DNA of 44,064 bases from the IMG/VR virus record IMGVR_UViG_2690316161_000025; one strand, 5' to 3'. The notes below the pieces were generated by a model that was given only the letters and a program-made list of their open reading frames with translations, was not told the origin of the DNA and searched no databases. Positions 4,703-44,064 of the stretch are shown here, in pieces (position 1 is the first letter of the stretch; the number at the start of each line of letters is the position of its first letter). The translations under genes and the position numbers were made by a program. Source of the DNA: a virus (lineage: Duplodnaviria > Heunggongvirae > Uroviricota > Caudoviricetes).

Positions 4703-5227
4703 ATGGCTAAACCAGCAAAACGCATCAAAAGTGCCGCAGCGGCTTATGTGCCACAAAACCGCGATGCGGTGATTACCGATATTAAACGCATCGGGGATTT
4801 ACAGCGCGAAGCATCACGTCTGGAAACGGAAATGAATGATGCCATCGCGGAAATTACGGAGAAATTTGCGGCCCGGATTGCACCGATTAAAACCGATATT
4901 GAAACCCTTTCAAAAGGCGTTCAGGGATGGTGTGAAGCGAACCGCGACGAACTGACGAACGGCGGCAAAGTGAAGACGGCAAATCTTGTCACCGGCGATG
5001 TGTCATGGCGTCAACGCCCGCCATCAGTGAGTATTCGCGGCGTGGATGCCGTAATGGAAACGCTGGAGCGTCTTGGCCTGCAACGCTTTATTCGCACGAA
5101 GCAGGAAATCAACAAGGAGGCGATTTTACTGGAACCAAAAGCCGTCGCAGGTGTTGCCGGAATTACGGTTAAATCGGGAATTGAAGATTTTTCCATTATT
5201 CCGTTTGAACAGGAAGCAGGTATTTAA
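4703..5227 (+). CDS. gam: Gam, host-nuclease inhibitor / DNA-end binding protein (174 aa)
   Basis: ORF MAKPAKRIKSAAAAYVPQNRDAVITDIKRIGDLQREASRLE..., SD aggag upstream; matches Mu Gam. Confidence 0.9.
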   Translation: MAKPAKRIKSAAAAYVPQNRDAVITDIKRIGDLQREASRLETEMNDAIAEITEKFAARIAPIKTDIETLSKGVQGWCEANRDELTNGGKVKTANLVTGDVSWRQRPPSVSIRGVDAVMETLERLGLQRFIRTKQEINKEAILLEPKAVAGVAGITVKSGIEDFSIIPFEQEAGI

Positions 5228-5325
5228 TACCACCATTAATATTTAATTAATTCACATTCTTTTAATTATGGCGCGATGCGTCAGGGGATTGCTCGCGCCT
5301 GAAACAGATTACTGAGGAATAAAAC

Positions 5326-5856
5326 ATGGTTGATGCAAAAATTCTGAATGGTGTCAGCACATTATTACGGGCTTACGGACGCCTGACCTGCGGGGTTCTG
5401 GCTGAAAAAATGCAGATGCCATCCTCCGCAATGGTGTACTTCCTGCGTGATGCGGTTGATGCCGGAATGCTGACTGAACTTAATGGTTTTTACGACGTAC
5501 CGCGTCCCCGTACAGAGCAGCCTGTAAGACGAAACGCAACTGAGCAGTCTGCTGTTGATGATGCCGCGTGGTGTTCCTTCCGCCGCCCATTGCCCTGGCT
5601 GGAAGGCAATGCCATTCCGGCACTGGCAAAAGAATTTGCAACAGGCGTGCTGACCTGTGAATCCGTTCACATCGTTGCAGAAGTGGACAACAGAATGTGC
5701 GAACAGGGAATGCCCCGTTTTGTGATGGCTTATATCGATATCCGGCTGGGGCGTTTTATTTGCAGTTCCAGCGCCTGGAATATCACCGACCATGTACTGC
5801 GTTATCTCATTCTTGATTGTTCTCCGGCTCCCGCAGCGGTGCAGGAGGTGGCGTGA
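5326..5856 (+). CDS. Early-region hypothetical protein (176 aa)
   Basis: ORF with SD gagga upstream; operon context. Confidence 0.55.
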   Translation: MVDAKILNGVSTLLRAYGRLTCGVLAEKMQMPSSAMVYFLRDAVDAGMLTELNGFYDVPRPRTEQPVRRNATEQSAVDDAAWCSFRRPLPWLEGNAIPALAKEFATGVLTCESVHIVAEVDNRMCEQGMPRFVMAYIDIRLGRFICSSSAWNITDHVLRYLILDCSPAPAAVQEVA

Positions 5857-8376: not shown

Positions 8377-8383
8377 ACAGTAA

Positions 8384-8406
8384 AGCCGGTTAATCCGGCT
8401 TTTTTT
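8384..8406 (+). terminator. Rho-independent terminator after mor (end of early transcript)
   Basis: Hairpin agccggttaatccggct followed by tttttt. Confidence 0.6.
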
Positions 8407-30667: not shown

Positions 30668-32022
30668 TGTTTTATATTGATAACGACAGCGGCGTAACCG
30701 TCATGCCGCCCGTATCCGCCCAGCGTAGTGCTATCGTTCGCTGGTTTTCAGAAGGTGACGGGAATAATGTTATCACATGGCCCGGCATGGACTGGTTTAA
30801 TATTGTGCAGGCGGAGTTATTAAACACGCTGGAAGAAGCCGGTATTCAACCGGATAAAACAAAATTAAACCAGCTTGCACTATCCATTAAAGCCATTATG
30901 AGCAATAACGCACTGCTGATAAAAAATAACCTCAGCGAAATTAAAACTGCCGGGGCATCAGCACAGCGTACAGCACGTGAAAATCTGGATATTTATGATG
31001 CCAGCCTGAACAAAAAAGGACTCGTTCAGCTAACCAGTGCCACTGACAGCCCCAGTGAAACGCTGGCAGCCACCGCAAAAGCGGTGAAAATTGCGATGGA
31101 TAATGCCAGTGCCCGTCTGGCAAAAGACCGGAACGGAGCAGATATTCCCAATAAGCCGCTGTTTATCCAAAACCTCGGTTTACAGGAAACGGTAAACAAG
31201 GCTGGTAACGCTGTTCAGCGTTCTGGCGATACAATGACCGGAAAACTGAATCTACCACAGACATCTGCATTCGGCGTTGATACCGATAATGCACTGGGTG
31301 GTAATTCCATTACTCTCGGAGATAACGACACTGGTATTAAACAGGGCGGAGACGGTGTCCTTTTATTCTATTCAAATGGACAACTGGCATTTGGGCTTCA
31401 ACCCGCATCTGCTGATTTTTATAAGCGGGTTGCATACATTCCTCAGGGAATAATTCCTGATGGAAGTGGCGCATTTGCAGACCAGTTGAATAATGCCACC
31501 GCGCCTTTTGTTCAGACGCAGTTTGCCTGGAATCCCACTCCTGGTGGTCATTACGTGCCGATAGTTAAGGGCTTGTCCATTCGCAATGGACAGGGCTATC
31601 CCGGCGCGGTCAGCTTTGGTTATTTGCTGACAGAACAGTATGGATTTCCGGTTCCATGTATTCATATGCGTGGCGATGGCGGTAATGATGCTTTATGGCA
31701 GTTTAACCCGAACGATAAATCTTTTATTTCACCGGGTGCTCTTGTTGCGGGTGGCATCATTTATAACACCGATGGAAATATATTTGGCGGGTGTTGGGGT
31801 TCAAATTTAGCTGATTATCTCAATAGCACATATGTAAGAGACATTCGACTTGGTAGCGCAGAATCAATATCAGCATGGCGAGGCCCTGGTTACTGGGATA
31901 CTTCTGGATATGTTCTGACCGCAGCCGGAAACAGCAACACCGATGAATTTATTGATACATTAACCAGAAGGCCTATTCAGAAGTTGATTGGTGGGACATA
32001 TTATAACGTTGTGAGTATTTGA
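30667..32022 (+). CDS. S: Tail fibre protein S (constant part Sc 30667-~31176 fused in frame to variable part Sv inside the G segment)
   Basis: 451-aa ORF; gixL lies inside the coding sequence at codons FIQNLGLQE. Confidence 0.85.
31163..31188. other. gixL, left Gin recombination site
   Basis: ttatccaaaacc-tc-ggtttacaggaa; inverted copy at 34355-34380. Confidence 0.8.
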
Positions 32023-32023
32023 C

Positions 32024-32551
32024 ATGATGCATTTAAAAAACATTAAAGCAGGGAACCCCAAAACACCTGAACAATACCAGTTAACCAAAAAAGCTGGAGT
32101 GGTCTGGCTTTATACTGAAGATGGTAAAAACTGGTACGAAGAACAAAAAAACTTTCAACCAGATACTATAAAAATTGCATACGATAAAAATAATGTGATT
32201 GTTACCGTAAGCAAAGATGTTTCAACTATTAACCCGGAAGGTTTAAGTGTTGTTGAAGTATCCGATATTACGGCAAATCGTCGCGCAGACAATAACGGAA
32301 ACTGGATGTTTCTGGATGGTAAAGTAGTAAAGCGGGAATATACAAAACAGGAGCTGCAACAGCAGGCAGAGTTACAAAAAGCCGCTTTGCTTTCCGAAGC
32401 GGAGTCTGTGATTCAACCGCTGGAACGTGCTGTCAGGCTGAATATGGCAACTAATGAGGAACGCGCACGACTGGAGTCATGGGAACGCTACAGTGTTCTG
32501 GTCAGCCGTGTGGATACGGCAAATCCTGAATGGCCACAAAAGCCTGAATAA
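32024..32551 (+). CDS. U: Tail fibre assembly protein U, 175 aa
   Basis: ATG one base after S stop; paralogue of minus-strand U'. Confidence 0.85.
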
Positions 32552-32556
32552 AAATT

Positions 32557-32576
32557 AAGGCCCGATAGCGGGCCTT
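32557..32576. terminator. Bidirectional hairpin between convergent U and U'
   Basis: aaggccc-gatagc-gggcctt; A/T run on the U' side. Confidence 0.45.
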
Positions 32577-32579
32577 GTC

Positions 32580-33113
32580 TCATTCTGGTTGTTCCGGGAA
32601 TGTTACAGGAAGAACAGAGGTATCTGTGGCATCAACCTGCTGCATGTATAACATCCAGTTAATGAGTCTTTGCCTGTCTGAATCGCTGATAATTCCCAGC
32701 GCAAGCTGTGTTTGCCAGCACTGCGTTTCCTCTCTGGCCTGTCGCAGCAAAATCTGTTTCTGAATTTCAGCCAGTTGACGTAGTTCTTCATCAGTCCGGG
32801 GGCGTTTCATGACCTTGCCATCCTGAAACACCCAGTCACCGAGAATATCGGCCCGGCGATTCGCTGTCGTGTCGGGTAATTCGACAACGCTCATTCCTTC
32901 CGGGTTAATAGACGACACATCTTTTTCAATATAGCGAATGATACCTCTGTCATCGTAAGCGATTTTTAGTGTGTCTGCCTGAAAGGCTTTTTGTGCCTCA
33001 TACCAGTTCTTACCATCTTCAGCGTAAAGCCAGATAACTCCGTGTTTCTTTGTTAACTCATACTGTTCCAGTGTTTTAGCGTTACCCGCTTTTATGTTCT
33101 TTAAGTGCATCAT
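32580..33113 (-). CDS. U': Alternative tail fibre assembly protein U' (177 aa), silent in this orientation
   Basis: Minus-strand [26 protein letters not shown]... paralogous to U. Confidence 0.85.
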   Translation of the reverse strand: MMHLKNIKAGNAKTLEQYELTKKHGVIWLYAEDGKNWYEAQKAFQADTLKIAYDDRGIIRYIEKDVSSINPEGMSVVELPDTTANRRADILGDWVFQDGKVMKRPRTDEELRQLAEIQKQILLRQAREETQCWQTQLALGIISDSDRQRLINWMLYMQQVDATDTSVLPVTFPEQPE

Positions 33114-33114
33114 A

Positions 33115-34362
33115 TTAAACGCTCGCTACATTATACCAGGTGCCATTTATATACTTTTGAACGGGTCTGTAATAAACGCCCGCTATATTATCGGCAGAGT
33201 TGGACCCTGTATCCTGAACATTAATACCAGACAATACATGACCTGACGGGCACTGGAAATTCCATGTTTGCCAGTTGTTCACACCATGATATTGCTGTGA
33301 ACCAAGACGAACATCTTTCACATAGCGGGAATCAAAATTCCCCCAGTTGCTGGGTTGTATCTGACCGTTAACAGCAAATATCACCGAGTTATCTGTATTT
33401 CGCTGACTATAGAAATGCCAGCCTGAATCATCACCAAGCTCTGCAACAGTTGGTCTTGACGAATTTCCCCACAAGCTAAATGATGCATTACGGGCAGCGG
33501 TATTTGCACTTGAAAGTGTGAAGAACTTACTTTCCCCAGCCTGAATACCCTTTAATGATCTTGCTGAACCATTTATAAAGCGGAATACATGCACACCATT
33601 AGCATAAGCATCCAGCACCCCATCACCATTTTGTTTAAACCCGGTATCGTTATCTCCTAAAACTATTGAATTTCCACCCAGGGCATTAGCCGTTCCAATC
33701 CCCAGATTTCCGCTAAAAATGGCATTAATACCGAGTATTGAGTGAGAACAATAAAACCCTCGCCCATTGTTAAAATCCAGAATGGCTTGTGCGTTCGTGC
33801 TTTCTGTCGCGGGATTAGTTGCTCCCCACTTATATGTTGTTTGACCGACAGTATAATCCTGAGTTGGAACAATAACCGTTAGCCCTTCTTCAGCAGAAAC
33901 CCGCACAGGAAAAGCCCTGCCTTCAACGTAAAAAACGCTGCATACATCATCTTCTTTAAGGCTTGTTACAATGGAATGGATTGCGCGCTCATTAGTCTGA
34001 TACGTCGAAAAATAACCTGCCGCATATGAACCACGATCAGTCCAGCCACCAGGCATTACCATTCCATTGAATTCGCAGTTATTCATTGCGTAATCACTAC
34101 TGGCACATGTGGTCGTTATAATCACTCTGGAAGCCAGCTCGCCAGTGCCGCCTGTGGAACGCCGGAAAATAACTGGATACCACTTTCCACCAATTGCATT
34201 AGACGGCGCATTAAATGCGTACTGCCGCATTCCTTTTTTCTTATCCACCTCGCCTTTGCTGTAAACATTAATGTTACTCAGGAAGCGATCCTTATCAGGA
34301 ATATCCGCGCCGTTCTGGTTTTTCTGTAATGCGCCAGAAGCCTGATTTACCGTTTCCTGCAA
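33115..34362 (-). CDS. S': S' variable part (S'v): promoterless, start-less alternative tail-fibre C-terminal module, expressed only after G inversion
   Basis: Minus-strand frame is open across gixR and would be in frame with Sc after inversion (..LQETVN.. shared at the gix site). Confidence 0.8.
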   Translation of the reverse strand: MQETVNQASGALQKNQNGADIPDKDRFLSNINVYSKGEVDKKKGMRQYAFNAPSNAIGGKWYPVIFRRSTGGTGELASRVIITTTCASSDYAMNNCEFNGMVMPGGWTDRGSYAAGYFSTYQTNERAIHSIVTSLKEDDVCSVFYVEGRAFPVRVSAEEGLTVIVPTQDYTVGQTTYKWGATNPATESTNAQAILDFNNGRGFYCSHSILGINAIFSGNLGIGTANALGGNSIVLGDNDTGFKQNGDGVLDAYANGVHVFRFINGSARSLKGIQAGESKFFTLSSANTAARNASFSLWGNSSRPTVAELGDDSGWHFYSQRNTDNSVIFAVNGQIQPSNWGNFDSRYVKDVRLGSQQYHGVNNWQTWNFQCPSGHVLSGINVQDTGSNSADNIAGVYYRPVQKYINGTWYNVASV

Positions 34363-34380
34363 ACCGAGGTTTTAGATAAT
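34355..34380. other. gixR, right Gin recombination site
   Basis: Reverse complement reads ttatctaaaacc-tc-ggtttgcaggaa. Confidence 0.8.
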
Positions 34381-34433
34381 GGCTGTTTCCGGCCTGCATG
34401 GCATGATTTGCGCTTTTAAACGGGAGATCCAGA

Positions 34434-35027
34434 GTGCTGATTGGCTATGTAAGGGTATCAACAAATGACCAGAATACAGACCTGCAACGAAACGCTCTTG
34501 TTTGTGCAGGATGTGAACAAATATTTGAAGATAAATTAAGCGGAACAAGGACAGACAGACCTGGATTAAAACGCGCTTTAAAGCGCCTTCAAAAAGGTGA
34601 CACACTTGTTGTCTGGAAACTGGATCGCCTCGGGCGAAGCATGAAACATTTGATTTCTCTCGTAGGGGAATTACGAGAGCGAGGGATTAATTTTCGCAGT
34701 CTTACTGACAGTATTGATACGTCATCTCCAATGGGGCGTTTTTTCTTCCACGTTATGGGTGCCCTGGCTGAGATGGAACGAGAACTAATCATCGAGCGAA
34801 CGATGGCTGGACTTGCTGCCGCCAGAAATAAAGGCCGTATTGGTGGGCGACCACCTAAACTAACCAAAGCGGAATGGGAGCAGGCCGGGCGTTTATTAGC
34901 ACAAGGAATCCCCCGCAAGCAGGTTGCATTGATCTACGATGTGGCCCTGTCAACTCTGTATAAAAAACACCCCGCGAAACGAACGCATATAGAAAACGAC
35001 GATCGAATCAATCAAATCGATCGGTAA
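34434..35027 (+). CDS. gin: Gin serine recombinase (DNA invertase)
   Basis: GTG start 34434 with SD gggag; product MLIGYVRVSTNDQNTDLQRNAL... with catalytic Ser at YVRVS; resolvase/invertase family. Confidence 0.95.
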   Translation: MLIGYVRVSTNDQNTDLQRNALVCAGCEQIFEDKLSGTRTDRPGLKRALKRLQKGDTLVVWKLDRLGRSMKHLISLVGELRERGINFRSLTDSIDTSSPMGRFFFHVMGALAEMERELIIERTMAGLAAARNKGRIGGRPPKLTKAEWEQAGRLLAQGIPRKQVALIYDVALSTLYKKHPAKRTHIENDDRINQIDR

Positions 35028-35035
35028 TACAGATC
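35001..35035. promoter_or_regulatory. Three clustered Dam GATC sites upstream of the mom promoter (methylation-sensitive regulatory region)
   Basis: GATC at 35001, 35019, 35032 spanning the gin stop codon. Confidence 0.6.
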
Positions 35036-35039
35036 GATT

Positions 35040-35109
35040 ATGTCTCAATAACCACACTCAACCCATGATGTTTTTTAAGATAGTGGCGAATTGATGCAAA
35101 GGAGGTGAG
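35040..35109 (+). promoter_or_regulatory. Pmom promoter / C-activator binding region, approximate
   Basis: Intergenic between gin and com; precedes SD aaggaggtgag of com. Confidence 0.45.
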
Positions 35110-35298
35110 ATGAAATCAATTCGCTGTAAAAACTGCAACAAACTGTTATTTAAGGCGGATTCCTTTGATCACATTGAAATCAGGTGTCCGCGTTGCAAAC
35201 GTCACATCATAATGCTGAATGCCTGCGAGCATCCCATGGAGAAACATTGTGGGAAAAGAGAAAAAATCACGCATTCTGACGAAACCGTGCGTTATTGA
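35110..35298 (+). CDS. com: Com, zinc-finger translational activator of mom (62 aa)
   Basis: [32 protein letters not shown]... with CxxC...CxxC; overlaps mom 5' end. Confidence 0.9.
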
Positions 35299-35944
35299 GT
35301 ATGAAGGCCAGATTGTTGGCTATGGTTCAAAGGAGCTGCGCGTTGAAACCATATCTTGCTGGCTGGCCCGCACAATTATTCAGACAAAGCACTATTCCCG
35401 CCGTTTTGTGAATAACTCTTACCTCCACCTGGGAGTATTCAGCGGACGCGATCTGGTTGGCGTTCTCCAGTGGGGATATGCCCTTAACCCCAACTCAGGT
35501 CGTCGTGTCGTGCTTGAAACGGATAACCGGGGCTATATGGAGTTGAACCGCATGTGGCTACACGACGACATGCCCCGCAACTCTGAATCACGGGCCATCA
35601 GTTATGCACTGAAAACCATAAGGTTACTGTATCCGTCAGTGGAGTGGGTTCAGTCTTTTGCAGACGAACGCTGCGGACGTGCTGGCGTTGTGTATCAGGC
35701 GTCAAATTTTGATTTTATTGGCAGCCATGAAAGCACGTTCTACGAGCTGGATGGTGAGTGGTATCACGAGATAACGATGAACGCGATTAAACGCGGTGGA
35801 CAACGAGGCGTGTATTTACGGGCTAATAAAGAGCGTGCCGTGGTGCACAAATTTAATCAGTATCGCTACATCAGGTTCCTGAACAAGCGAGCAAGGAAGC
35901 GACTAAATACCAAGCTATTCAAGGTTCAGCCATACCCTAAGTGA
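35219..35944 (+). CDS. mom: Mom DNA modification protein (adenine modification); true start may be GTG at 35249
   Basis: ORF overlapping the com 3' end in another frame; last gene before the Mu right end. Confidence 0.85.
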
Positions 35945-38419: not shown

Positions 38420-39288
38420 TCAGGACTCCTCATGCTCTGATTCAGGTTGACGATCCCACGACAAACGCGGGTCAAACGTCATAGCAGAAAACATTGTCAT
38501 TATGACGACTAAAGCAAACATTAATGCACCCATTGCCGGATAAATACTCATTAAACCTCCCATACGCACCAGCGCCGAGAGCACCGCGATAACGAAAACG
38601 TCAATCATCGACCAGCGGCCTACAAACTCAACAACTTCATAAATCAAATGCATTCTTTCACTGTCGCGCTTGCCATGCCCTTTGGCATCCCAACACAGCC
38701 ACGCGATGGCGATCATCTTTAACGTTGGCACCATAATACTGGCCAGAAAGATCACCGCAGCGACGGGATAAGAGCCTTCGCTCCATAACAGAATGACCCC
38801 AGCGAGAATCGTCGACGGCATCTTCGAGCCTAATAAATCCGTCACCATGATGGGCAAAATATTAGCCGGAAGATACAGCATGATGGACGTTACAAGCAGC
38901 GCGAGTGTCCACTGCAGGCTGTTTCTACGCCGAACGTACCCTTTGGTACTACAACGCGGGCACACGGGTTCATCAGCAGGAAGGATTGCCGTACAACAGG
39001 AGCACGAACGCAGCCCCTGACGTATCCCCGTGACGCCTGGTTTTAGCGGCTGGCGCAGTTCTGGCATCGGGGCGATGTCGTCCCATAACCAGCGACGATC
39101 AACGCACTGAAAAGCGCGCAGTTGCAGGACACAAAATAAACACCAGGGGAGAAAGCTGCTGCCTACCCCAATGCTGCCGTAAGCCATCAGTTTAACGAAA
39201 CTGACCAGCACACCAGCGAGGAAAATCTCCGCCATTCCCCAGGTTTTGAGTTGAAAAAGCACCCGTGCCAGTTGCTCTTTTAAACGGA
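38420..39288 (-). pseudogene. pqiA: pqiA, 3' portion only (about 289 C-terminal codons); 5' end replaced by Mu-derived sequence
   Basis: Minus-strand frame encodes multi-pass membrane protein with CxxC...CxxC (CSCCTA...CPRCS); the first 10 codons of the apparent ORF ([11 protein letters not shown]) are read from Mu gix/S sequence. Confidence 0.8.
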
Positions 39289-39308
39289 AAAACCTCGGTT
39301 TACAGGAA
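39283..39308. other. Chimeric gix-like site: pqiA-derived left half (aacggaaaaacc) joined to gixL core and right half
   Basis: Identity to 31169 onward begins at 39289; central tc and right half ggtttacaggaa identical to gixL. Confidence 0.75.
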
Positions 39309-40142
39309 ACGGTAAACAAGGCTGGTAACGCTGTTCAGCGTTCTGGCGATACAATGACCGGAAAACTGAATCTACCACAGACATCTGCATTCGGCGTTGA
39401 TACCGATAATGCACTGGGTGGTAATTCCATTACTCTCGGAGATAACGACACTGGTATTAAACAGGGCGGAGACGGTGTCCTTTTATTCTATTCAAATGGA
39501 CAACTGGCATTTGGGCTTCAACCCGCATCTGCTGATTTTTATAAGCGGGTTGCATACATTCCTCAGGGAATAATTCCTGATGGAAGTGGCGCATTTGCAG
39601 ACCAGTTGAATAATGCCACCGCGCCTTTTGTTCAGACGCAGTTTGCCTGGAATCCCACTCCTGGTGGTCATTACGTGCCGATAGTTAAGGGCTTGTCCAT
39701 TCGCAATGGACAGGGCTATCCCGGCGCGGTCAGCTTTGGTTATTTGCTGACAGAACAGTATGGATTTCCGGTTCCATGTATTCATATGCGTGGCGATGGC
39801 GGTAATGATGCTTTATGGCAGTTTAACCCGAACGATAAATCTTTTATTTCACCGGGTGCTCTTGTTGCGGGTGGCATCATTTATAACACCGATGGAAATA
39901 TATTTGGCGGGTGTTGGGGTTCAAATTTAGCTGATTATCTCAATAGCACATATGTAAGAGACATTCGACTTGGTAGCGCAGAATCAATATCAGCATGGCG
40001 AGGCCCTGGTTACTGGGATACTTCTGGATATGTTCTGACCGCAGCCGGAAACAGCAACACCGATGAATTTATTGATACATTAACCAGAAGGCCTATTCAG
40101 AAGTTGATTGGTGGGACATATTATAACGTTGTGAGTATTTGA
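39289..40142 (+). CDS. S: Sv variable part of tail fibre S (copy 2), no upstream constant part or start
   Basis: Identical to 31169-32022; frame enters from pqiA-antisense sequence. Confidence 0.7.
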
Positions 40143-40143
40143 C

Positions 40144-40671
40144 ATGATGCATTTAAAAAACATTAAAGCAGGGAACCCCAAAACACCTGAACAATACCAG
40201 TTAACCAAAAAAGCTGGAGTGGTCTGGCTTTATACTGAAGATGGTAAAAACTGGTACGAAGAACAAAAAAACTTTCAACCAGATACTATAAAAATTGCAT
40301 ACGATAAAAATAATGTGATTGTTACCGTAAGCAAAGATGTTTCAACTATTAACCCGGAAGGTTTAAGTGTTGTTGAAGTATCCGATATTACGGCAAATCG
40401 TCGCGCAGACAATAACGGAAACTGGATGTTTCTGGATGGTAAAGTAGTAAAGCGGGAATATACAAAACAGGAGCTGCAACAGCAGGCAGAGTTACAAAAA
40501 GCCGCTTTGCTTTCCGAAGCGGAGTCTGTGATTCAACCGCTGGAACGTGCTGTCAGGCTGAATATGGCAACTAATGAGGAACGCGCACGACTGGAGTCAT
40601 GGGAACGCTACAGTGTTCTGGTCAGCCGTGTGGATACGGCAAATCCTGAATGGCCACAAAAGCCTGAATAA
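40144..40671 (+). CDS. U: Tail fibre assembly protein U (copy 2)
   Basis: Identical to 32024-32551. Confidence 0.85.
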
Positions 40672-40699
40672 AAATTAAGGCCCGATAGCGGGCCTTGTC

Positions 40700-41233
40700 T
40701 CATTCTGGTTGTTCCGGGAATGTTACAGGAAGAACAGAGGTATCTGTGGCATCAACCTGCTGCATGTATAACATCCAGTTAATGAGTCTTTGCCTGTCTG
40801 AATCGCTGATAATTCCCAGCGCAAGCTGTGTTTGCCAGCACTGCGTTTCCTCTCTGGCCTGTCGCAGCAAAATCTGTTTCTGAATTTCAGCCAGTTGACG
40901 TAGTTCTTCATCAGTCCGGGGGCGTTTCATGACCTTGCCATCCTGAAACACCCAGTCACCGAGAATATCGGCCCGGCGATTCGCTGTCGTGTCGGGTAAT
41001 TCGACAACGCTCATTCCTTCCGGGTTAATAGACGACACATCTTTTTCAATATAGCGAATGATACCTCTGTCATCGTAAGCGATTTTTAGTGTGTCTGCCT
41101 GAAAGGCTTTTTGTGCCTCATACCAGTTCTTACCATCTTCAGCGTAAAGCCAGATAACTCCGTGTTTCTTTGTTAACTCATACTGTTCCAGTGTTTTAGC
41201 GTTACCCGCTTTTATGTTCTTTAAGTGCATCAT
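40700..41233 (-). CDS. U': U' (copy 2)
   Basis: Identical to 32580-33113. Confidence 0.85.
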   Translation of the reverse strand: MMHLKNIKAGNAKTLEQYELTKKHGVIWLYAEDGKNWYEAQKAFQADTLKIAYDDRGIIRYIEKDVSSINPEGMSVVELPDTTANRRADILGDWVFQDGKVMKRPRTDEELRQLAEIQKQILLRQAREETQCWQTQLALGIISDSDRQRLINWMLYMQQVDATDTSVLPVTFPEQPE

Positions 41234-41234
41234 A

Positions 41235-42482
41235 TTAAACGCTCGCTACATTATACCAGGTGCCATTTATATACTTTTGAACGGGTCTGTAATAAACGCC
41301 CGCTATATTATCGGCAGAGTTGGACCCTGTATCCTGAACATTAATACCAGACAATACATGACCTGACGGGCACTGGAAATTCCATGTTTGCCAGTTGTTC
41401 ACACCATGATATTGCTGTGAACCAAGACGAACATCTTTCACATAGCGGGAATCAAAATTCCCCCAGTTGCTGGGTTGTATCTGACCGTTAACAGCAAATA
41501 TCACCGAGTTATCTGTATTTCGCTGACTATAGAAATGCCAGCCTGAATCATCACCAAGCTCTGCAACAGTTGGTCTTGACGAATTTCCCCACAAGCTAAA
41601 TGATGCATTACGGGCAGCGGTATTTGCACTTGAAAGTGTGAAGAACTTACTTTCCCCAGCCTGAATACCCTTTAATGATCTTGCTGAACCATTTATAAAG
41701 CGGAATACATGCACACCATTAGCATAAGCATCCAGCACCCCATCACCATTTTGTTTAAACCCGGTATCGTTATCTCCTAAAACTATTGAATTTCCACCCA
41801 GGGCATTAGCCGTTCCAATCCCCAGATTTCCGCTAAAAATGGCATTAATACCGAGTATTGAGTGAGAACAATAAAACCCTCGCCCATTGTTAAAATCCAG
41901 AATGGCTTGTGCGTTCGTGCTTTCTGTCGCGGGATTAGTTGCTCCCCACTTATATGTTGTTTGACCGACAGTATAATCCTGAGTTGGAACAATAACCGTT
42001 AGCCCTTCTTCAGCAGAAACCCGCACAGGAAAAGCCCTGCCTTCAACGTAAAAAACGCTGCATACATCATCTTCTTTAAGGCTTGTTACAATGGAATGGA
42101 TTGCGCGCTCATTAGTCTGATACGTCGAAAAATAACCTGCCGCATATGAACCACGATCAGTCCAGCCACCAGGCATTACCATTCCATTGAATTCGCAGTT
42201 ATTCATTGCGTAATCACTACTGGCACATGTGGTCGTTATAATCACTCTGGAAGCCAGCTCGCCAGTGCCGCCTGTGGAACGCCGGAAAATAACTGGATAC
42301 CACTTTCCACCAATTGCATTAGACGGCGCATTAAATGCGTACTGCCGCATTCCTTTTTTCTTATCCACCTCGCCTTTGCTGTAAACATTAATGTTACTCA
42401 GGAAGCGATCCTTATCAGGAATATCCGCGCCGTTCTGGTTTTTCTGTAATGCGCCAGAAGCCTGATTTACCGTTTCCTGCAA
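41235..42482 (-). CDS. S': S'v (copy 2)
   Basis: Identical to 33115-34362. Confidence 0.8.
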   Translation of the reverse strand: MQETVNQASGALQKNQNGADIPDKDRFLSNINVYSKGEVDKKKGMRQYAFNAPSNAIGGKWYPVIFRRSTGGTGELASRVIITTTCASSDYAMNNCEFNGMVMPGGWTDRGSYAAGYFSTYQTNERAIHSIVTSLKEDDVCSVFYVEGRAFPVRVSAEEGLTVIVPTQDYTVGQTTYKWGATNPATESTNAQAILDFNNGRGFYCSHSILGINAIFSGNLGIGTANALGGNSIVLGDNDTGFKQNGDGVLDAYANGVHVFRFINGSARSLKGIQAGESKFFTLSSANTAARNASFSLWGNSSRPTVAELGDDSGWHFYSQRNTDNSVIFAVNGQIQPSNWGNFDSRYVKDVRLGSQQYHGVNNWQTWNFQCPSGHVLSGINVQDTGSNSADNIAGVYYRPVQKYINGTWYNVASV

Positions 42483-42500
42483 ACCGAGGTTTTAGATAAT
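42475..42500. other. gixR (copy 2)
   Basis: Identical to 34355-34380. Confidence 0.8.
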
Positions 42501-42553
42501 GGCTGTTTCCGGCCTGCATGGCATGATTTGCGCTTTTAAACGGGAGATCCAGA

Positions 42554-43147
42554 GTGCTGATTGGCTATGTAAGGGTATCAACAAATGACCAGAATACAGA
42601 CCTGCAACGAAACGCTCTTGTTTGTGCAGGATGTGAACAAATATTTGAAGATAAATTAAGCGGAACAAGGACAGACAGACCTGGATTAAAACGCGCTTTA
42701 AAGCGCCTTCAAAAAGGTGACACACTTGTTGTCTGGAAACTGGATCGCCTCGGGCGAAGCATGAAACATTTGATTTCTCTCGTAGGGGAATTACGAGAGC
42801 GAGGGATTAATTTTCGCAGTCTTACTGACAGTATTGATACGTCATCTCCAATGGGGCGTTTTTTCTTCCACGTTATGGGTGCCCTGGCTGAGATGGAACG
42901 AGAACTAATCATCGAGCGAACGATGGCTGGACTTGCTGCCGCCAGAAATAAAGGCCGTATTGGTGGGCGACCACCTAAACTAACCAAAGCGGAATGGGAG
43001 CAGGCCGGGCGTTTATTAGCACAAGGAATCCCCCGCAAGCAGGTTGCATTGATCTACGATGTGGCCCTGTCAACTCTGTATAAAAAACACCCCGCGAAAC
43101 GAACGCATATAGAAAACGACGATCGAATCAATCAAATCGATCGGTAA
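42554..43147 (+). CDS. gin: Gin serine recombinase (copy 2)
   Basis: Identical to 34434-35027. Confidence 0.95.
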   Translation: MLIGYVRVSTNDQNTDLQRNALVCAGCEQIFEDKLSGTRTDRPGLKRALKRLQKGDTLVVWKLDRLGRSMKHLISLVGELRERGINFRSLTDSIDTSSPMGRFFFHVMGALAEMERELIIERTMAGLAAARNKGRIGGRPPKLTKAEWEQAGRLLAQGIPRKQVALIYDVALSTLYKKHPAKRTHIENDDRINQIDR

Positions 43148-43229
43148 TACAGATCGATTATGTCTCAATAACCACACTCAACCCATGATGTTTTTTAAGA
43201 TAGTGGCGAATTGATGCAAAGGAGGTGAG

Positions 43230-43418
43230 ATGAAATCAATTCGCTGTAAAAACTGCAACAAACTGTTATTTAAGGCGGATTCCTTTGATCACATTGAAAT
43301 CAGGTGTCCGCGTTGCAAACGTCACATCATAATGCTGAATGCCTGCGAGCATCCCATGGAGAAACATTGTGGGAAAAGAGAAAAAATCACGCATTCTGAC
43401 GAAACCGTGCGTTATTGA
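43230..43418 (+). CDS. com: Com (copy 2)
   Basis: Identical to 35110-35298. Confidence 0.9.
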
Positions 43419-44064
43419 GTATGAAGGCCAGATTGTTGGCTATGGTTCAAAGGAGCTGCGCGTTGAAACCATATCTTGCTGGCTGGCCCGCACAATTATT
43501 CAGACAAAGCACTATTCCCGCCGTTTTGTGAATAACTCTTACCTCCACCTGGGAGTATTCAGCGGACGCGATCTGGTTGGCGTTCTCCAGTGGGGATATG
43601 CCCTTAACCCCAACTCAGGTCGTCGTGTCGTGCTTGAAACGGATAACCGGGGCTATATGGAGTTGAACCGCATGTGGCTACACGACGACATGCCCCGCAA
43701 CTCTGAATCACGGGCCATCAGTTATGCACTGAAAACCATAAGGTTACTGTATCCGTCAGTGGAGTGGGTTCAGTCTTTTGCAGACGAACGCTGCGGACGT
43801 GCTGGCGTTGTGTATCAGGCGTCAAATTTTGATTTTATTGGCAGCCATGAAAGCACGTTCTACGAGCTGGATGGTGAGTGGTATCACGAGATAACGATGA
43901 ACGCGATTAAACGCGGTGGACAACGAGGCGTGTATTTACGGGCTAATAAAGAGCGTGCCGTGGTGCACAAATTTAATCAGTATCGCTACATCAGGTTCCT
44001 GAACAAGCGAGCAAGGAAGCGACTAAATACCAAGCTATTCAAGGTTCAGCCATACCCTAAGTGA
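43339..44064 (+). CDS. mom: Mom (copy 2); window ends at its stop codon
   Basis: Identical to 35219-35944. Confidence 0.85.

What the first reader, a model, noticed from the sequence alone, without database searches (positions are those of the whole stretch)
5262..5300. Stable hairpin in the gam-downstream intergenic region
ggcgcga-(16 nt)-tcgcgcc (5271-5300) forms a gc-rich 7-bp stem between gam and the next early gene, without a following T-run. It could be an RNA stability or processing element or a pause site within the long early transcript rather than a terminator.
Basis: seen in the sequence. Interest (0 to 1): 0.2.

Follow-up and report, generated by a model that had tools for sequence, protein, structure and literature searches.

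The report
Conserved RNA hairpin after Mu gam
A small GC-rich hairpin, preceded by a G-free AU-rich stretch, lies between gam and the next gene of this Mu/D108-type phage and stays almost unchanged in Mu-like phages even where the genes on either side are swapped; it is a real, unannotated signal, most likely an mRNA processing or stability mark rather than a terminator, but its function is untested.

Summary
The hairpin is real, but it lies at 5270-5276/5293-5299, one base left of the stated coordinates. It has a 16-nt interior that folds into a second small stem with an AGGG loop, and no T-run follows on either strand. A 7-bp GC-rich stem alone is not significant: the window has 28, against 15.8±4.7 in shuffles. 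Conservation is what makes it notable.

An element of about 80 nt (G-free AU-rich spacer 5228-5269, hairpin, UGAAACAG) is present once, in the same place and strand, in Mu, D108, SfMu, Yersinia Mu-like phages, Sp18-like prophages, and Kluyvera and Klebsiella Mu-like phages. It is more conserved than gam third-codon positions. It persists where the downstream gene is replaced (at least 12 different genes) and where gam itself is replaced by a DUF3164 gene.

The stem shows compensatory changes (C-G/U-A/U·G; G-C/A-U) and plus-strand-only G·U pairs, which points to RNA. It is not an intrinsic terminator, Rfam family, REP, ops, boxA, micro-ORF or conserved promoter.

The best reading, an inference, is an intercistronic processing or stability element of the early transcript. 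It is a new member of a known kind, of modest interest.

The parts
4703..5227 (+). gam (host-nuclease inhibitor), the gene upstream of the element
   Evidence: It is a 174-aa ORF matching Pfam PF07352 with E 2.2e-42. It is 98% identical to D108 gam at the DNA level.
5228..5269 (+). G-free, AU-rich single-stranded spacer between the gam stop codon and the hairpin
   Evidence: The spacer has 0 G, 7 C, 15 A and 20 T in 42 nt. It lies within the longest G-free run on the + strand of the whole window (49 nt from 5221). Over 18 variants from all clades the composition is G 4.4% against C 17.6%. The sequence is conserved between clades.
5270..5276 (+). 5' arm of the basal stem (GGCGCGA)
   Evidence: The arm is read directly. 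GGCG is kept in 29-30 of 30 variants. The fifth pair is C-G, U-A or U·G, and the sixth is G-C or A-U.
5277..5292 (+). interior of the hairpin: bulged U5277; inner stem 5278-5282 paired with 5287-5288 and 5290-5292 (U5289 bulged); apical loop AGGG at 5283-5286
   Evidence: RNAfold gives this structure. Inner pairs 22-36, 23-35 and 24-34 of alignment A4 are kept in 22-28 of 30 variants, with G·U pairs that form only on the + strand. A GGG run in the loop is present in almost every variant (two of 30 carry a G-to-A change within it).
5293..5299 (+). 3' arm of the basal stem (TCGCGCC)
   Evidence: The arm is read directly, and the pair counts are.
5300..5307 (+). conserved 3' flank UGAAACAG, the last conserved bases before the mosaic joint
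   Evidence: A GAAnnCAG-like motif is kept in most clades. Homology to SfMu, YpM_3 and others ends just after it.
5258..5309 (+). extent of the covariance-model match (core of the element)
   Evidence: Model R1 scores 75.8 bits (E 4e-17) here, and this is the only copy in the window. The next best hit scores 13.6 bits.
5315..5319 (+). Shine-Dalgarno sequence (GAGGA) of the downstream gene
   Evidence: It lies 6 nt before the ATG at 5326. The equivalent site is annotated as a ribosome binding site in Mu record AF083977.
5326..5856 (+). Mu gp11 homologue, the gene downstream of the element in this phage
   Evidence: It is a 176-aa ORF matching Pfam PF25754 Gp11_C with E 1.3e-39.

Best explanation
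The hairpin is the core of a roughly 80-nt cis-acting RNA element in the long early (Pe) polycistronic transcript of Mu-type phages. The element is an unstructured, G-free AU-rich spacer, then a stable two-tier GC-rich stem-loop, then a short A-rich flank.

It most likely works as intercistronic 'punctuation' for mRNA decay. An endonuclease of the RNase E type would cut in the single-stranded AU-rich sequence next to the hairpin. The hairpin would then block exonucleolytic or 5'-end-dependent decay of the adjoining segment. The stability and yield of the conserved transposition/gam part of the operon would thus be uncoupled from the variable accessory genes downstream. It does not terminate transcription.

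Shown here: the structure, its conservation, its independence from both flanking genes, the strand-specific pairing, and the absence of terminator or promoter features. Inferred: cleavage and stabilisation, and which side is protected.
For: - **Position and copy number.** There is one copy per phage, always on the sense strand, 22-46 nt after the upstream stop codon and 13-28 nt before the next start codon. The model found it in 68 of 100 Gam-related loci and once in the window.
- **Stronger conservation than neutral sites.** Identity of the element to the window, against gam third-codon identity, is 0.97 vs 0.85 for Mu, 0.93 vs 0.72 for L082, and 0.75-0.79 vs 0.44-0.45 for Sp18-like prophages. 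In the weakest class of E. coli hits (229 records at 60-80% identity), every listed record aligns only to about 5201-5308 of a 251-nt query.
- **Independence from both neighbours.** The downstream gene is one of at least 12 unrelated genes. The upstream gene is gam, a DUF3164 gene (Pfam E 3e-89) or a 62-aa ORF.
- **Pairing is maintained.** 81.8% of cells are paired, against 31-49% when the partner is slid. Pair 18-39 is C-G 23, U-A 6, U·G 1. Pair 19-38 is G-C 10, A-U 1 (Klebsiella Kp4852-3). Pair 20-37 is A-U, C-G or G·U. Pair 11-45 is C-G or U-A. All variants fold as the same two-tier hairpin, -10.5 to -21.9 kcal/mol.
- **The RNA is the + strand.** G·U pairs in the inner stem, U·G in L239 and G·U in L088 would be A·C mismatches on the other strand. 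The spacer is G-depleted but not C-depleted.
- **Not a terminator.** No U-run follows on either strand.
- **Analogous hairpins elsewhere.** Unrelated GC-rich hairpins without U-runs sit at the same place after gam in Haemophilus Mu-like prophages and after DUF3164 in L242.
- **Precedent, from established knowledge.** AU-rich single-stranded RNA next to a stem-loop is the classical RNase E context. Intercistronic hairpins stabilise operon segments in malEFG, puf, pap and T7 early mRNAs.
Against: - No RNA-end, half-life or nuclease data for Mu could be found or produced here, so cleavage and stabilisation are pure inference.
- A plain exonuclease barrier would not need a conserved loop (GCGUCAGGG, GGG in almost every variant) or a conserved spacer sequence. 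These hint at sequence-specific recognition.
- Four of the five universal basal pairs barely vary (one is invariant), so they say little for or against pairing. The compensatory changes come from few independent events. The measure 'pairs with a change on both sides' is no better than shuffles (330 of 500 shuffles reach it).
- Three single sequences carry A·C mismatches in the basal stem.
- The direction of protection, upstream or downstream segment, is undetermined.
Confidence: 0.4

Rival explanations
1. The element controls translation of whatever gene lies downstream. The AU-rich G-free spacer would serve as a 30S/S1 landing (standby) platform. The hairpin would either insulate the ribosome binding site from upstream structure, or clamp the upstream pyrimidine tract (UUCUUUU) onto the purine-rich Shine-Dalgarno sequence to repress it.
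For: - The hairpin always ends 13-28 nt before the next start codon, 5-15 nt before its Shine-Dalgarno sequence, whichever gene follows.
- In several variants the predicted fold pairs the upstream U/C tract with the Shine-Dalgarno region, with the hairpin nested inside. This is seen in L040, L066, L078, L091, L104 and L109 and in the 98-nt fold of the window.
- The spacer is selected to be unstructured.
Against: - The pairing of the flanks is not found in the longer fold of the window or of Mu.
- Any U-rich tract will pair with any Shine-Dalgarno sequence in such predictions.
- No covariation for that outer helix beyond pairs 9-11 with 45-47 was seen.
- The downstream sequences are not homologous, so no alignment-based test is possible.
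Confidence: 0.15
2. The element controls transcription elongation and resembles lambda nutR/tR1. The G-free C-containing spacer would load Rho (or the hairpin would pause RNA polymerase). The hairpin would bind a phage or host factor that decides how much transcription continues into the accessory genes and the distal activator gene mor.
For: - The element contains the longest G-free run in 44 kb, in an untranslated 98-nt gap of an operon of about 8 kb. The C:G ratio in the spacer is 4:1 across clades.
- The loop sequence is conserved beyond what pairing requires.
- The layout of unstructured RNA, hairpin and more RNA recalls rutA-boxB-rutB of lambda tR1 (established knowledge).
Against: - C is only about 17% of the spacer, which is 22-46 nt long. 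Both values are low for a rut site.
- No boxA-like sequence lies in 5228-5310 at up to 2 mismatches.
- No N-like protein is known in Mu.
- There is a single copy per genome.
- No paper on Rho or antitermination in the Mu early operon was found.
Confidence: 0.12
3. The hairpin is a binding site for a sequence-specific RNA-binding protein, for example host CsrA. CsrA recognises GGA presented in a hairpin loop and often also a second GGA in the Shine-Dalgarno sequence.
For: - The loops read UCAGGGGAUU (Mu type), UCAGGAGAUU (Mu) and UCAGGGAUU (Kluyvera type). They resemble the CsrA SELEX consensus RUACARGGAUGU, which is recalled from memory.
- A second GGA lies in the downstream Shine-Dalgarno sequence about 30 nt away.
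Against: GGA is absent from the loop in clades C and D and several B/F variants (GGGGUU, GGGCUU). CsrA binding therefore cannot be the conserved function. Only the GGG run is near-universal.
Confidence: 0.08
4. The element is read as DNA. It could be a dyad-symmetric site (GGCGC-N19/20-GCGCC) for a dimeric DNA-binding protein. Or it could be a conserved 'linker' kept similar because homologous recombination between Mu-like phages swaps modules there.
For: - Compensatory changes also preserve a DNA palindrome.
- The element sits exactly at a mosaic joint on its 3' side, and in some phages on its 5' side as well.
- Sp18-like prophages share the element at 75-79% identity although their gam DNA is only 65% identical, which could reflect exchange.
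- gp11, just downstream in Mu, has an N-terminal region that looks like a winged helix. This was judged by eye and not tested.
Against: - U·G, G·U and the many G·U pairs of the inner stem have no meaning in duplex DNA and exist only on the + strand.
- The G-versus-C asymmetry of the spacer is a single-strand property.
- The half-sites are 24-25 bp apart centre to centre.
- L233 keeps the element but has no gp11 homologue in 5.5 kb.
- No conserved promoter lies there for an operator to control.
- Recombination alone does not explain conservation above synonymous sites in clades that do not share flanks.
Confidence: 0.1
5. The site has no function of its own. It would be a chance hairpin, a 15-codon micro-ORF (ATG 5268 to TGA 5313-5315), or an antisense promoter (CTGACG-17-AAGAAT on the minus strand).
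For: - Seven-bp GC stems are common.
- An ATG abuts the stem in Mu-type and Sp18-type phages, and the micro-ORF ends in the Shine-Dalgarno sequence of gp11.
- The best minus-strand promoter-like score is 6.3-6.8 bits in three clades.
Against: - Conservation across clades and flank swaps excludes chance.
- The ATG is absent in clades B, C, D and F. The reading frame across the conserved core also differs between Mu-type and Sp18-type phages, so no peptide is conserved.
- No Shine-Dalgarno sequence precedes the ATG.
- The putative -10 hexamer is not conserved, and the consensus scan finds no promoter there.
Confidence: 0.05

Closest known systems
Intercistronic mRNA stabiliser or processing hairpins in polycistronic operons (REP hairpins in malE-malF, puf and pap intercistronic stem-loops, T7 early RNase III sites)
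   Same: It is a stable GC-rich stem-loop in an untranslated gap inside a long operon, with no U-run, flanked by AU-rich single-stranded RNA, and it separates genes likely needed in different amounts.
   Different: - It is not a dispersed repeat like REP. It occurs once per phage and only in Mu-like prophage context in 318 E. coli genomes.
- At 12-16 bp it is shorter than typical RNase III substrates.
- Its loop and spacer are sequence-conserved.
- No cleavage or stabilisation has been shown.
Lambda nutR / tR1 region (boxA, boxB hairpin, rutA/rutB)
   Same: A small hairpin is embedded in G-poor unstructured RNA directly after an early gene and ahead of a variable gene block. The hairpin loop is conserved.
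   Different: There is no boxA, no GNRA-like pentaloop, no known N-type protein in Mu, a single copy per genome, and a low C content.
Intrinsic (Rho-independent) terminator
   Same: It has a GC-rich stem-loop of similar size and stability.
   Different: No U-tract follows the stem on either strand. U residues lie 5' and A residues 3' of the stem, and in clades B, D and F they simply extend the helix.
CsrA-binding hairpin
   Same: In Mu-type and some Kluyvera-type variants a GGA lies in the loop of a short hairpin, with a second GGA in the nearby Shine-Dalgarno sequence.
   Different: GGA is missing from the loop in about 40% of variants, including whole clades.
RfaH ops / JUMPStart element
   Same: There is a superficial resemblance between GGCGCTAGCGTC (L087) and GGCGGTAGNNTG, and both lie in long operons.
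   Different: The window sequence does not match ops at up to 2 mismatches. The G5 position, critical for RfaH according to established knowledge, is C in all variants.

Membership tests
Intrinsic terminator | GC-rich stem-loop followed at once by a run of U | tested here: not met
   The stem is followed by UGAAACAG. The reverse strand reads AUAAUUAAAA after the stem. The site is absent from the terminator scan.
Any curated Rfam family | Covariance-model match at or near the gathering score | tested here: not met
   A search of 5000-5600 at E up to 10 gave only two chance-level eukaryotic snRNA/snoRNA hits, 12-16 bits against cut-offs of 53-60.
REP/BIME dispersed palindromes | Many copies scattered through host intergenic regions | tested here: not met
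   The median is one place per E. coli genome that has any. All listed places lie next to a Gam family gene. There is a single copy in the window.
Lambda-type nut site | boxA (YGCUCUUUA-like) a few nt upstream of the hairpin | tested here: not met
   None of the listed matches at up to 2 mismatches falls within 5228-5310, and the next listed + strand match is at 5484 (the table left 23 of its 223 matches unshown).
Lambda-type nut site | Cognate N-like arginine-rich antiterminator protein that binds the loop | not testable with these tools
   No such protein is known for Mu, and none was sought systematically here.
RfaH ops | GGCGGTAGNNTG in the non-template strand | tested here: not met
   No match at up to 2 mismatches overlaps 5228-5310.
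CsrA binding site | GGA in the loop of a hairpin, conserved among homologous sites | tested here: inconclusive
   GGA is present in the window, Mu, clade E and part of clade B. It is absent in clades C and D and in several B/F variants.
Intercistronic mRNA stabiliser or processing hairpin | Conserved base-paired stem in the sense transcript within an intercistronic gap | tested here: met
   81.8% of cells are paired against 31-49% when slid. Compensatory C-G/U-A/U·G and G-C/A-U changes occur, and the G·U pairs form on the + strand only. The gap lies between gam and gp11.
Intercistronic mRNA stabiliser or processing hairpin | RNA 5' or 3' ends at the hairpin, and a change in segment half-life when the stem is disrupted | not testable with these tools
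   No transcript-end data for Mu were found in the library.
Sigma-70 promoter (either strand) | -35 and -10 hexamers at 16-18 bp spacing, conserved among relatives | tested here: not met
   The consensus scan finds none in 5200-5330. The best weight-matrix hits score 1.5-6.8 bits, with -10 hexamers that are not conserved.
Small ORF / leader peptide | Start codon and reading frame conserved among relatives | tested here: not met
   The ATG at 5268 is absent in clades B, C, D and F, and the frame is shifted in Sp18-type phages.

The most novel reading that the evidence does not exclude
The spacer plus hairpin is a previously unrecognised elongation checkpoint of transposable phages, analogous to nut/rut. 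The G-free spacer would load Rho (or the hairpin would pause RNA polymerase), and the conserved GGG-containing loop would be read by a phage or host factor. That would set how much of the early transcript reaches the accessory genes and the middle-gene activator mor, and so time the lytic programme.
Probability: 0.1. Interest if true: 0.6.

Novelty: new member of a known kind. Interest (0 to 1): 0.3.

Why it matters
Mu is a classical model phage, and no regulatory feature is annotated inside its early operon between Pe and the gem promoter. None of the 17 phage records holding this sequence annotates anything there, including the richly annotated Mu record AF083977.

A conserved RNA element at this spot would give three things:
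- a handle on how the long early transcript is partitioned between the essential transposition/gam genes and the variable accessory genes;
- a precise marker of a gene-insertion hot spot in Mu-like phages, where at least 12 different genes follow it, a region where accessory functions could be sought;
- a compact, well-defined hairpin with natural compensatory variants that is easy to test.

If it proves to be only an exonuclease barrier, it is an ordinary example of a known device.

Tried and rejected
- **Intrinsic terminator on either strand.** Rejected: no U-run.
- **Rfam family.** None matched.
- **Micro-ORF ATG 5268 to TGA 5315.** Rejected: the start codon and frame are not conserved and there is no Shine-Dalgarno sequence.
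- **Upstream in-frame start for gp11.** Rejected: it is out of frame and has a stop.
- **Sigma-70 promoter on the + or - strand.** Rejected. This includes the minus-strand CTGACG -35-like hexamer formed by the conserved loop.
- **RfaH ops and boxA.** Rejected by pattern search.
- **REP-like dispersed repeat or second copy in the phage.** Rejected.
- **Element in non-Mu contexts.** The pattern GGCGC-N2-3-GCGTCAGGG matched 119 viral contigs. Only about 9 have the closing arm, and all of these are in Mu-like early-operon context (gam upstream in 7, a DUF3164-type gene in 2). The rest are chance matches in GC-rich DNA.
- **Operator for gp11.** Weakened: L233 keeps the element without a gp11 homologue.
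- **CsrA site as the conserved function.** Rejected as universal.
- **Pseudoknot between the GGG loop and the CC motif after the stop codon.** Inspected by eye only; it is inconsistent between clades and was not pursued.
- **Literature.** Six searches found nothing on this element or on processing of the Mu early transcript.

Full report
**Context.** The window is a Mu/D108-type transposable phage. The stretch 4703-5856 is 98.4% identical to D108 and 92.5% identical to Mu. gam is 4703-5227 and the Mu gp11 homologue is 5326-5856. Most neighbouring early genes in this stretch abut or overlap, and this 98-nt gap is among the largest in it.

**The observation.** GGCGCGA (5270-5276) pairs perfectly with TCGCGCC (5293-5299) across 16 nt. 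RNAfold adds an inner 5-bp stem (GCGUC with GA-UGC, one bulged U) capped by an AGGG loop, giving -16.2 kcal/mol and z = -2.8. The stem is followed by UGAAACAG, and on the other strand by AUAAUUAAAA. It is therefore not an intrinsic terminator in either direction, and the scan does not list it. Such a stem is not remarkable by itself: the window has 28 comparable perfect 7-bp GC-rich stems, against 15.8 ± 4.7 in shuffles.

**Conservation in close relatives.** In Mu, D108, PhiR68_1, Mu_3F6 and Yersinia YpM_5 the whole intergenic region is nearly invariant. In SfMu and YpM_3 it stays invariant up to just past the hairpin, and then homology stops because a different gene follows. I collected Gam relatives from GTDB genomes and IMG/VR and read the sequence after each gam stop codon.

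**Clades that carry the element.**
- Clade A: Mu/D108 type.
- Clade B: Kluyvera-like, Gam 74-80% identical.
- Clades C and D: Gam 80% and 62% identical.
- Clade E: Sp18-like prophages of EHEC, Gam 57% identical.

More distant Mu-like phages lack it. In Gilliamella, Brenneria, Symbiopectobacterium and the beta-proteobacteria the next gene abuts gam. A covariance model built from 22 variants finds exactly one copy in the window (75.8 bits; next best 13.6). It also finds one copy, on the sense strand, in 68 of 100 Gam-related loci. Many of those loci were training sequences, so they match by construction.

**Conservation exceeds neutral expectation.** Against the window, the 80-nt element compares with gam third-codon positions as follows: 0.97 vs 0.85 in Mu, 0.93 vs 0.72 in L082, and 0.75-0.79 vs 0.44-0.45 in Sp18-like prophages. 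A 251-nt query centred on the gap matched 318 of 5426 complete E. coli genomes. In the weakest class (229 records at 60-80% identity), every listed record aligns only over about 5201-5308, that is, the element itself.

**Independence from both neighbours.** The conserved sequence ends a few bases 3' of the hairpin. After it come at least 12 unrelated genes, including gp11, a DUF5420-type gene and several others. The element also occurs after a DUF3164 gene instead of gam in L233, L121, L239 and L240 (Pfam E 3e-89 for L233). In Klebsiella phage Kp4852-3 it follows a 62-aa ORF that follows DUF3164. It is therefore an autonomous module at a mosaic joint, not an appendage of gam. L233 keeps it without any gp11 homologue.

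**Structure.** All variants fold into the same two-tier hairpin, -10.5 to -21.9 kcal/mol. On a 30-sequence alignment, 81.8% of cells are paired, against 31-49% when the 3' partners are slid.
- The four outer pairs of GGCG/CGCC barely vary (one is invariant), so they are uninformative.
- The fifth pair is C-G (23), U-A (6, in clades C/D and in Kp4852-3) or U·G (1, L239).
- The sixth pair is G-C or A-U (Kp4852-3).
- Pair 20-37 is A-U, C-G or G·U.
- The flanking pair 11-45 is C-G or U-A.
- In clade A, loop substitutions rebuild the inner stem: UUG to CUA or CGA gives GUC/GAC or CGUC/GACG.

The independent events are few, and the count of pairs with double changes is no better than shuffles, so the covariation evidence is moderate rather than strong.

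**Which strand and which molecule.** The G·U pairs of the inner stem (18 and 10 sequences at two positions), U·G in L239 and G·U in L088 would be A·C mismatches on the opposite strand, and they are meaningless in duplex DNA. The spacer is strand-asymmetric. The window has 0 G in 42 nt, within the longest G-free run (49 nt) of the 44-kb window. Across all clades the spacer has G 4.4% against C 17.6%. Both observations point to the sense (early) transcript, with a spacer selected to stay single-stranded.

**What it is not.**
- There is no Rfam match.
- No conserved promoter lies on either strand.
- The ATG at 5268 opens a 15-codon ORF that ends in the Shine-Dalgarno sequence of gp11. However, the ATG is missing in clades B, C, D and F, and the frame shifts in Sp18-type phages, so no peptide is conserved.
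- ops and boxA patterns do not match.
- It is not a dispersed repeat.
- A CsrA-like GGA sits in the loop in many variants but not all.
- Nothing is annotated there in any of 17 phage records, and six literature searches found nothing.

**Analogous hairpins elsewhere.** Haemophilus Mu-like prophages (L028, L037) and contig L242 carry unrelated, strong hairpins without U-runs in a similar gap after gam or DUF3164. A structured RNA at this boundary has apparently arisen more than once.

**Interpretation.** The best-supported reading is a cis-acting RNA element of the early polycistronic transcript. Its anatomy is single-stranded AU-rich RNA next to a stable stem-loop, inside an operon, with no terminator tail. 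I give that mechanism about 0.4. I give about 0.85 that the element is functional at all and about 0.7 that it acts as plus-strand RNA.

**What does not fit a plain barrier.** The conserved loop and spacer sequences are not needed for a simple exonuclease block. They keep three alternatives open: control of downstream translation, a Rho- or nut-like elongation checkpoint, and a specific RNA-binding protein. None of these can be separated without RNA-end mapping and compensatory mutagenesis.

**Verdict.** This is a new, unannotated member of a known kind of element, and its interest is modest.

Noticed in passing
window 31164-35944 and 39284-44064: A 4.8-kb stretch is repeated directly at 99.9% identity with a spacing of 8120 bp, and the second copy runs to the end of the window. 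This could be a tandem duplication of the right part of the phage or an assembly artefact.
   Followed up: partly
window 5300-5326, and the same point in L004, L005, L061, L066, L068, L086-L091, L104, L121, L171, L233, L239, L240, L243: The few bases after the hairpin are a gene-insertion or replacement hot spot. At least 12 unrelated genes follow the element in different Mu-like phages. In SfMu and YpM_3 an extra gene of about 550 bp is inserted ahead of gp11.
   Followed up: partly
L233:273-890, L121:120-398, L238-L240, L243:64-714: In some enterobacterial Mu-like phages a DUF3164 gene (PF11363) occupies the position of gam, followed by the same intergenic element.
   Followed up: partly
L028 about 1962-2080, L037 about 287-400, L242 about 1818-1920: Unrelated strong hairpins without U-runs (-35 and -40 kcal/mol for the gap) fill a similar intergenic gap after gam or DUF3164 in Haemophilus Mu-like prophages and in one metagenomic phage.
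   Followed up: partly
window 8382-8402 (+): This is the best terminator-like site in the first 12 kb: AAAGCCGG-TTAAT-CCGGCTTT followed by TTTT. It corresponds to about 9.4-9.5 kb in Mu/D108 coordinates, so it is probably the end of the early operon.
   Followed up: no
window 5326-5856: gp11 matches Pfam Gp11_C only in its C-terminal half (residues 90-167). The N-terminal 60 residues look like a winged-helix DNA-binding domain by eye, but no family matched them.
   Followed up: no
window 32213-32334 / 32803-32924 (and the duplicated copies at 40333-40454 / 40923-41044): These are 122-nt inverted repeats, 74% complementary, 468 nt apart, in the tail-fibre/invertible-segment part of the phage.
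   Followed up: no
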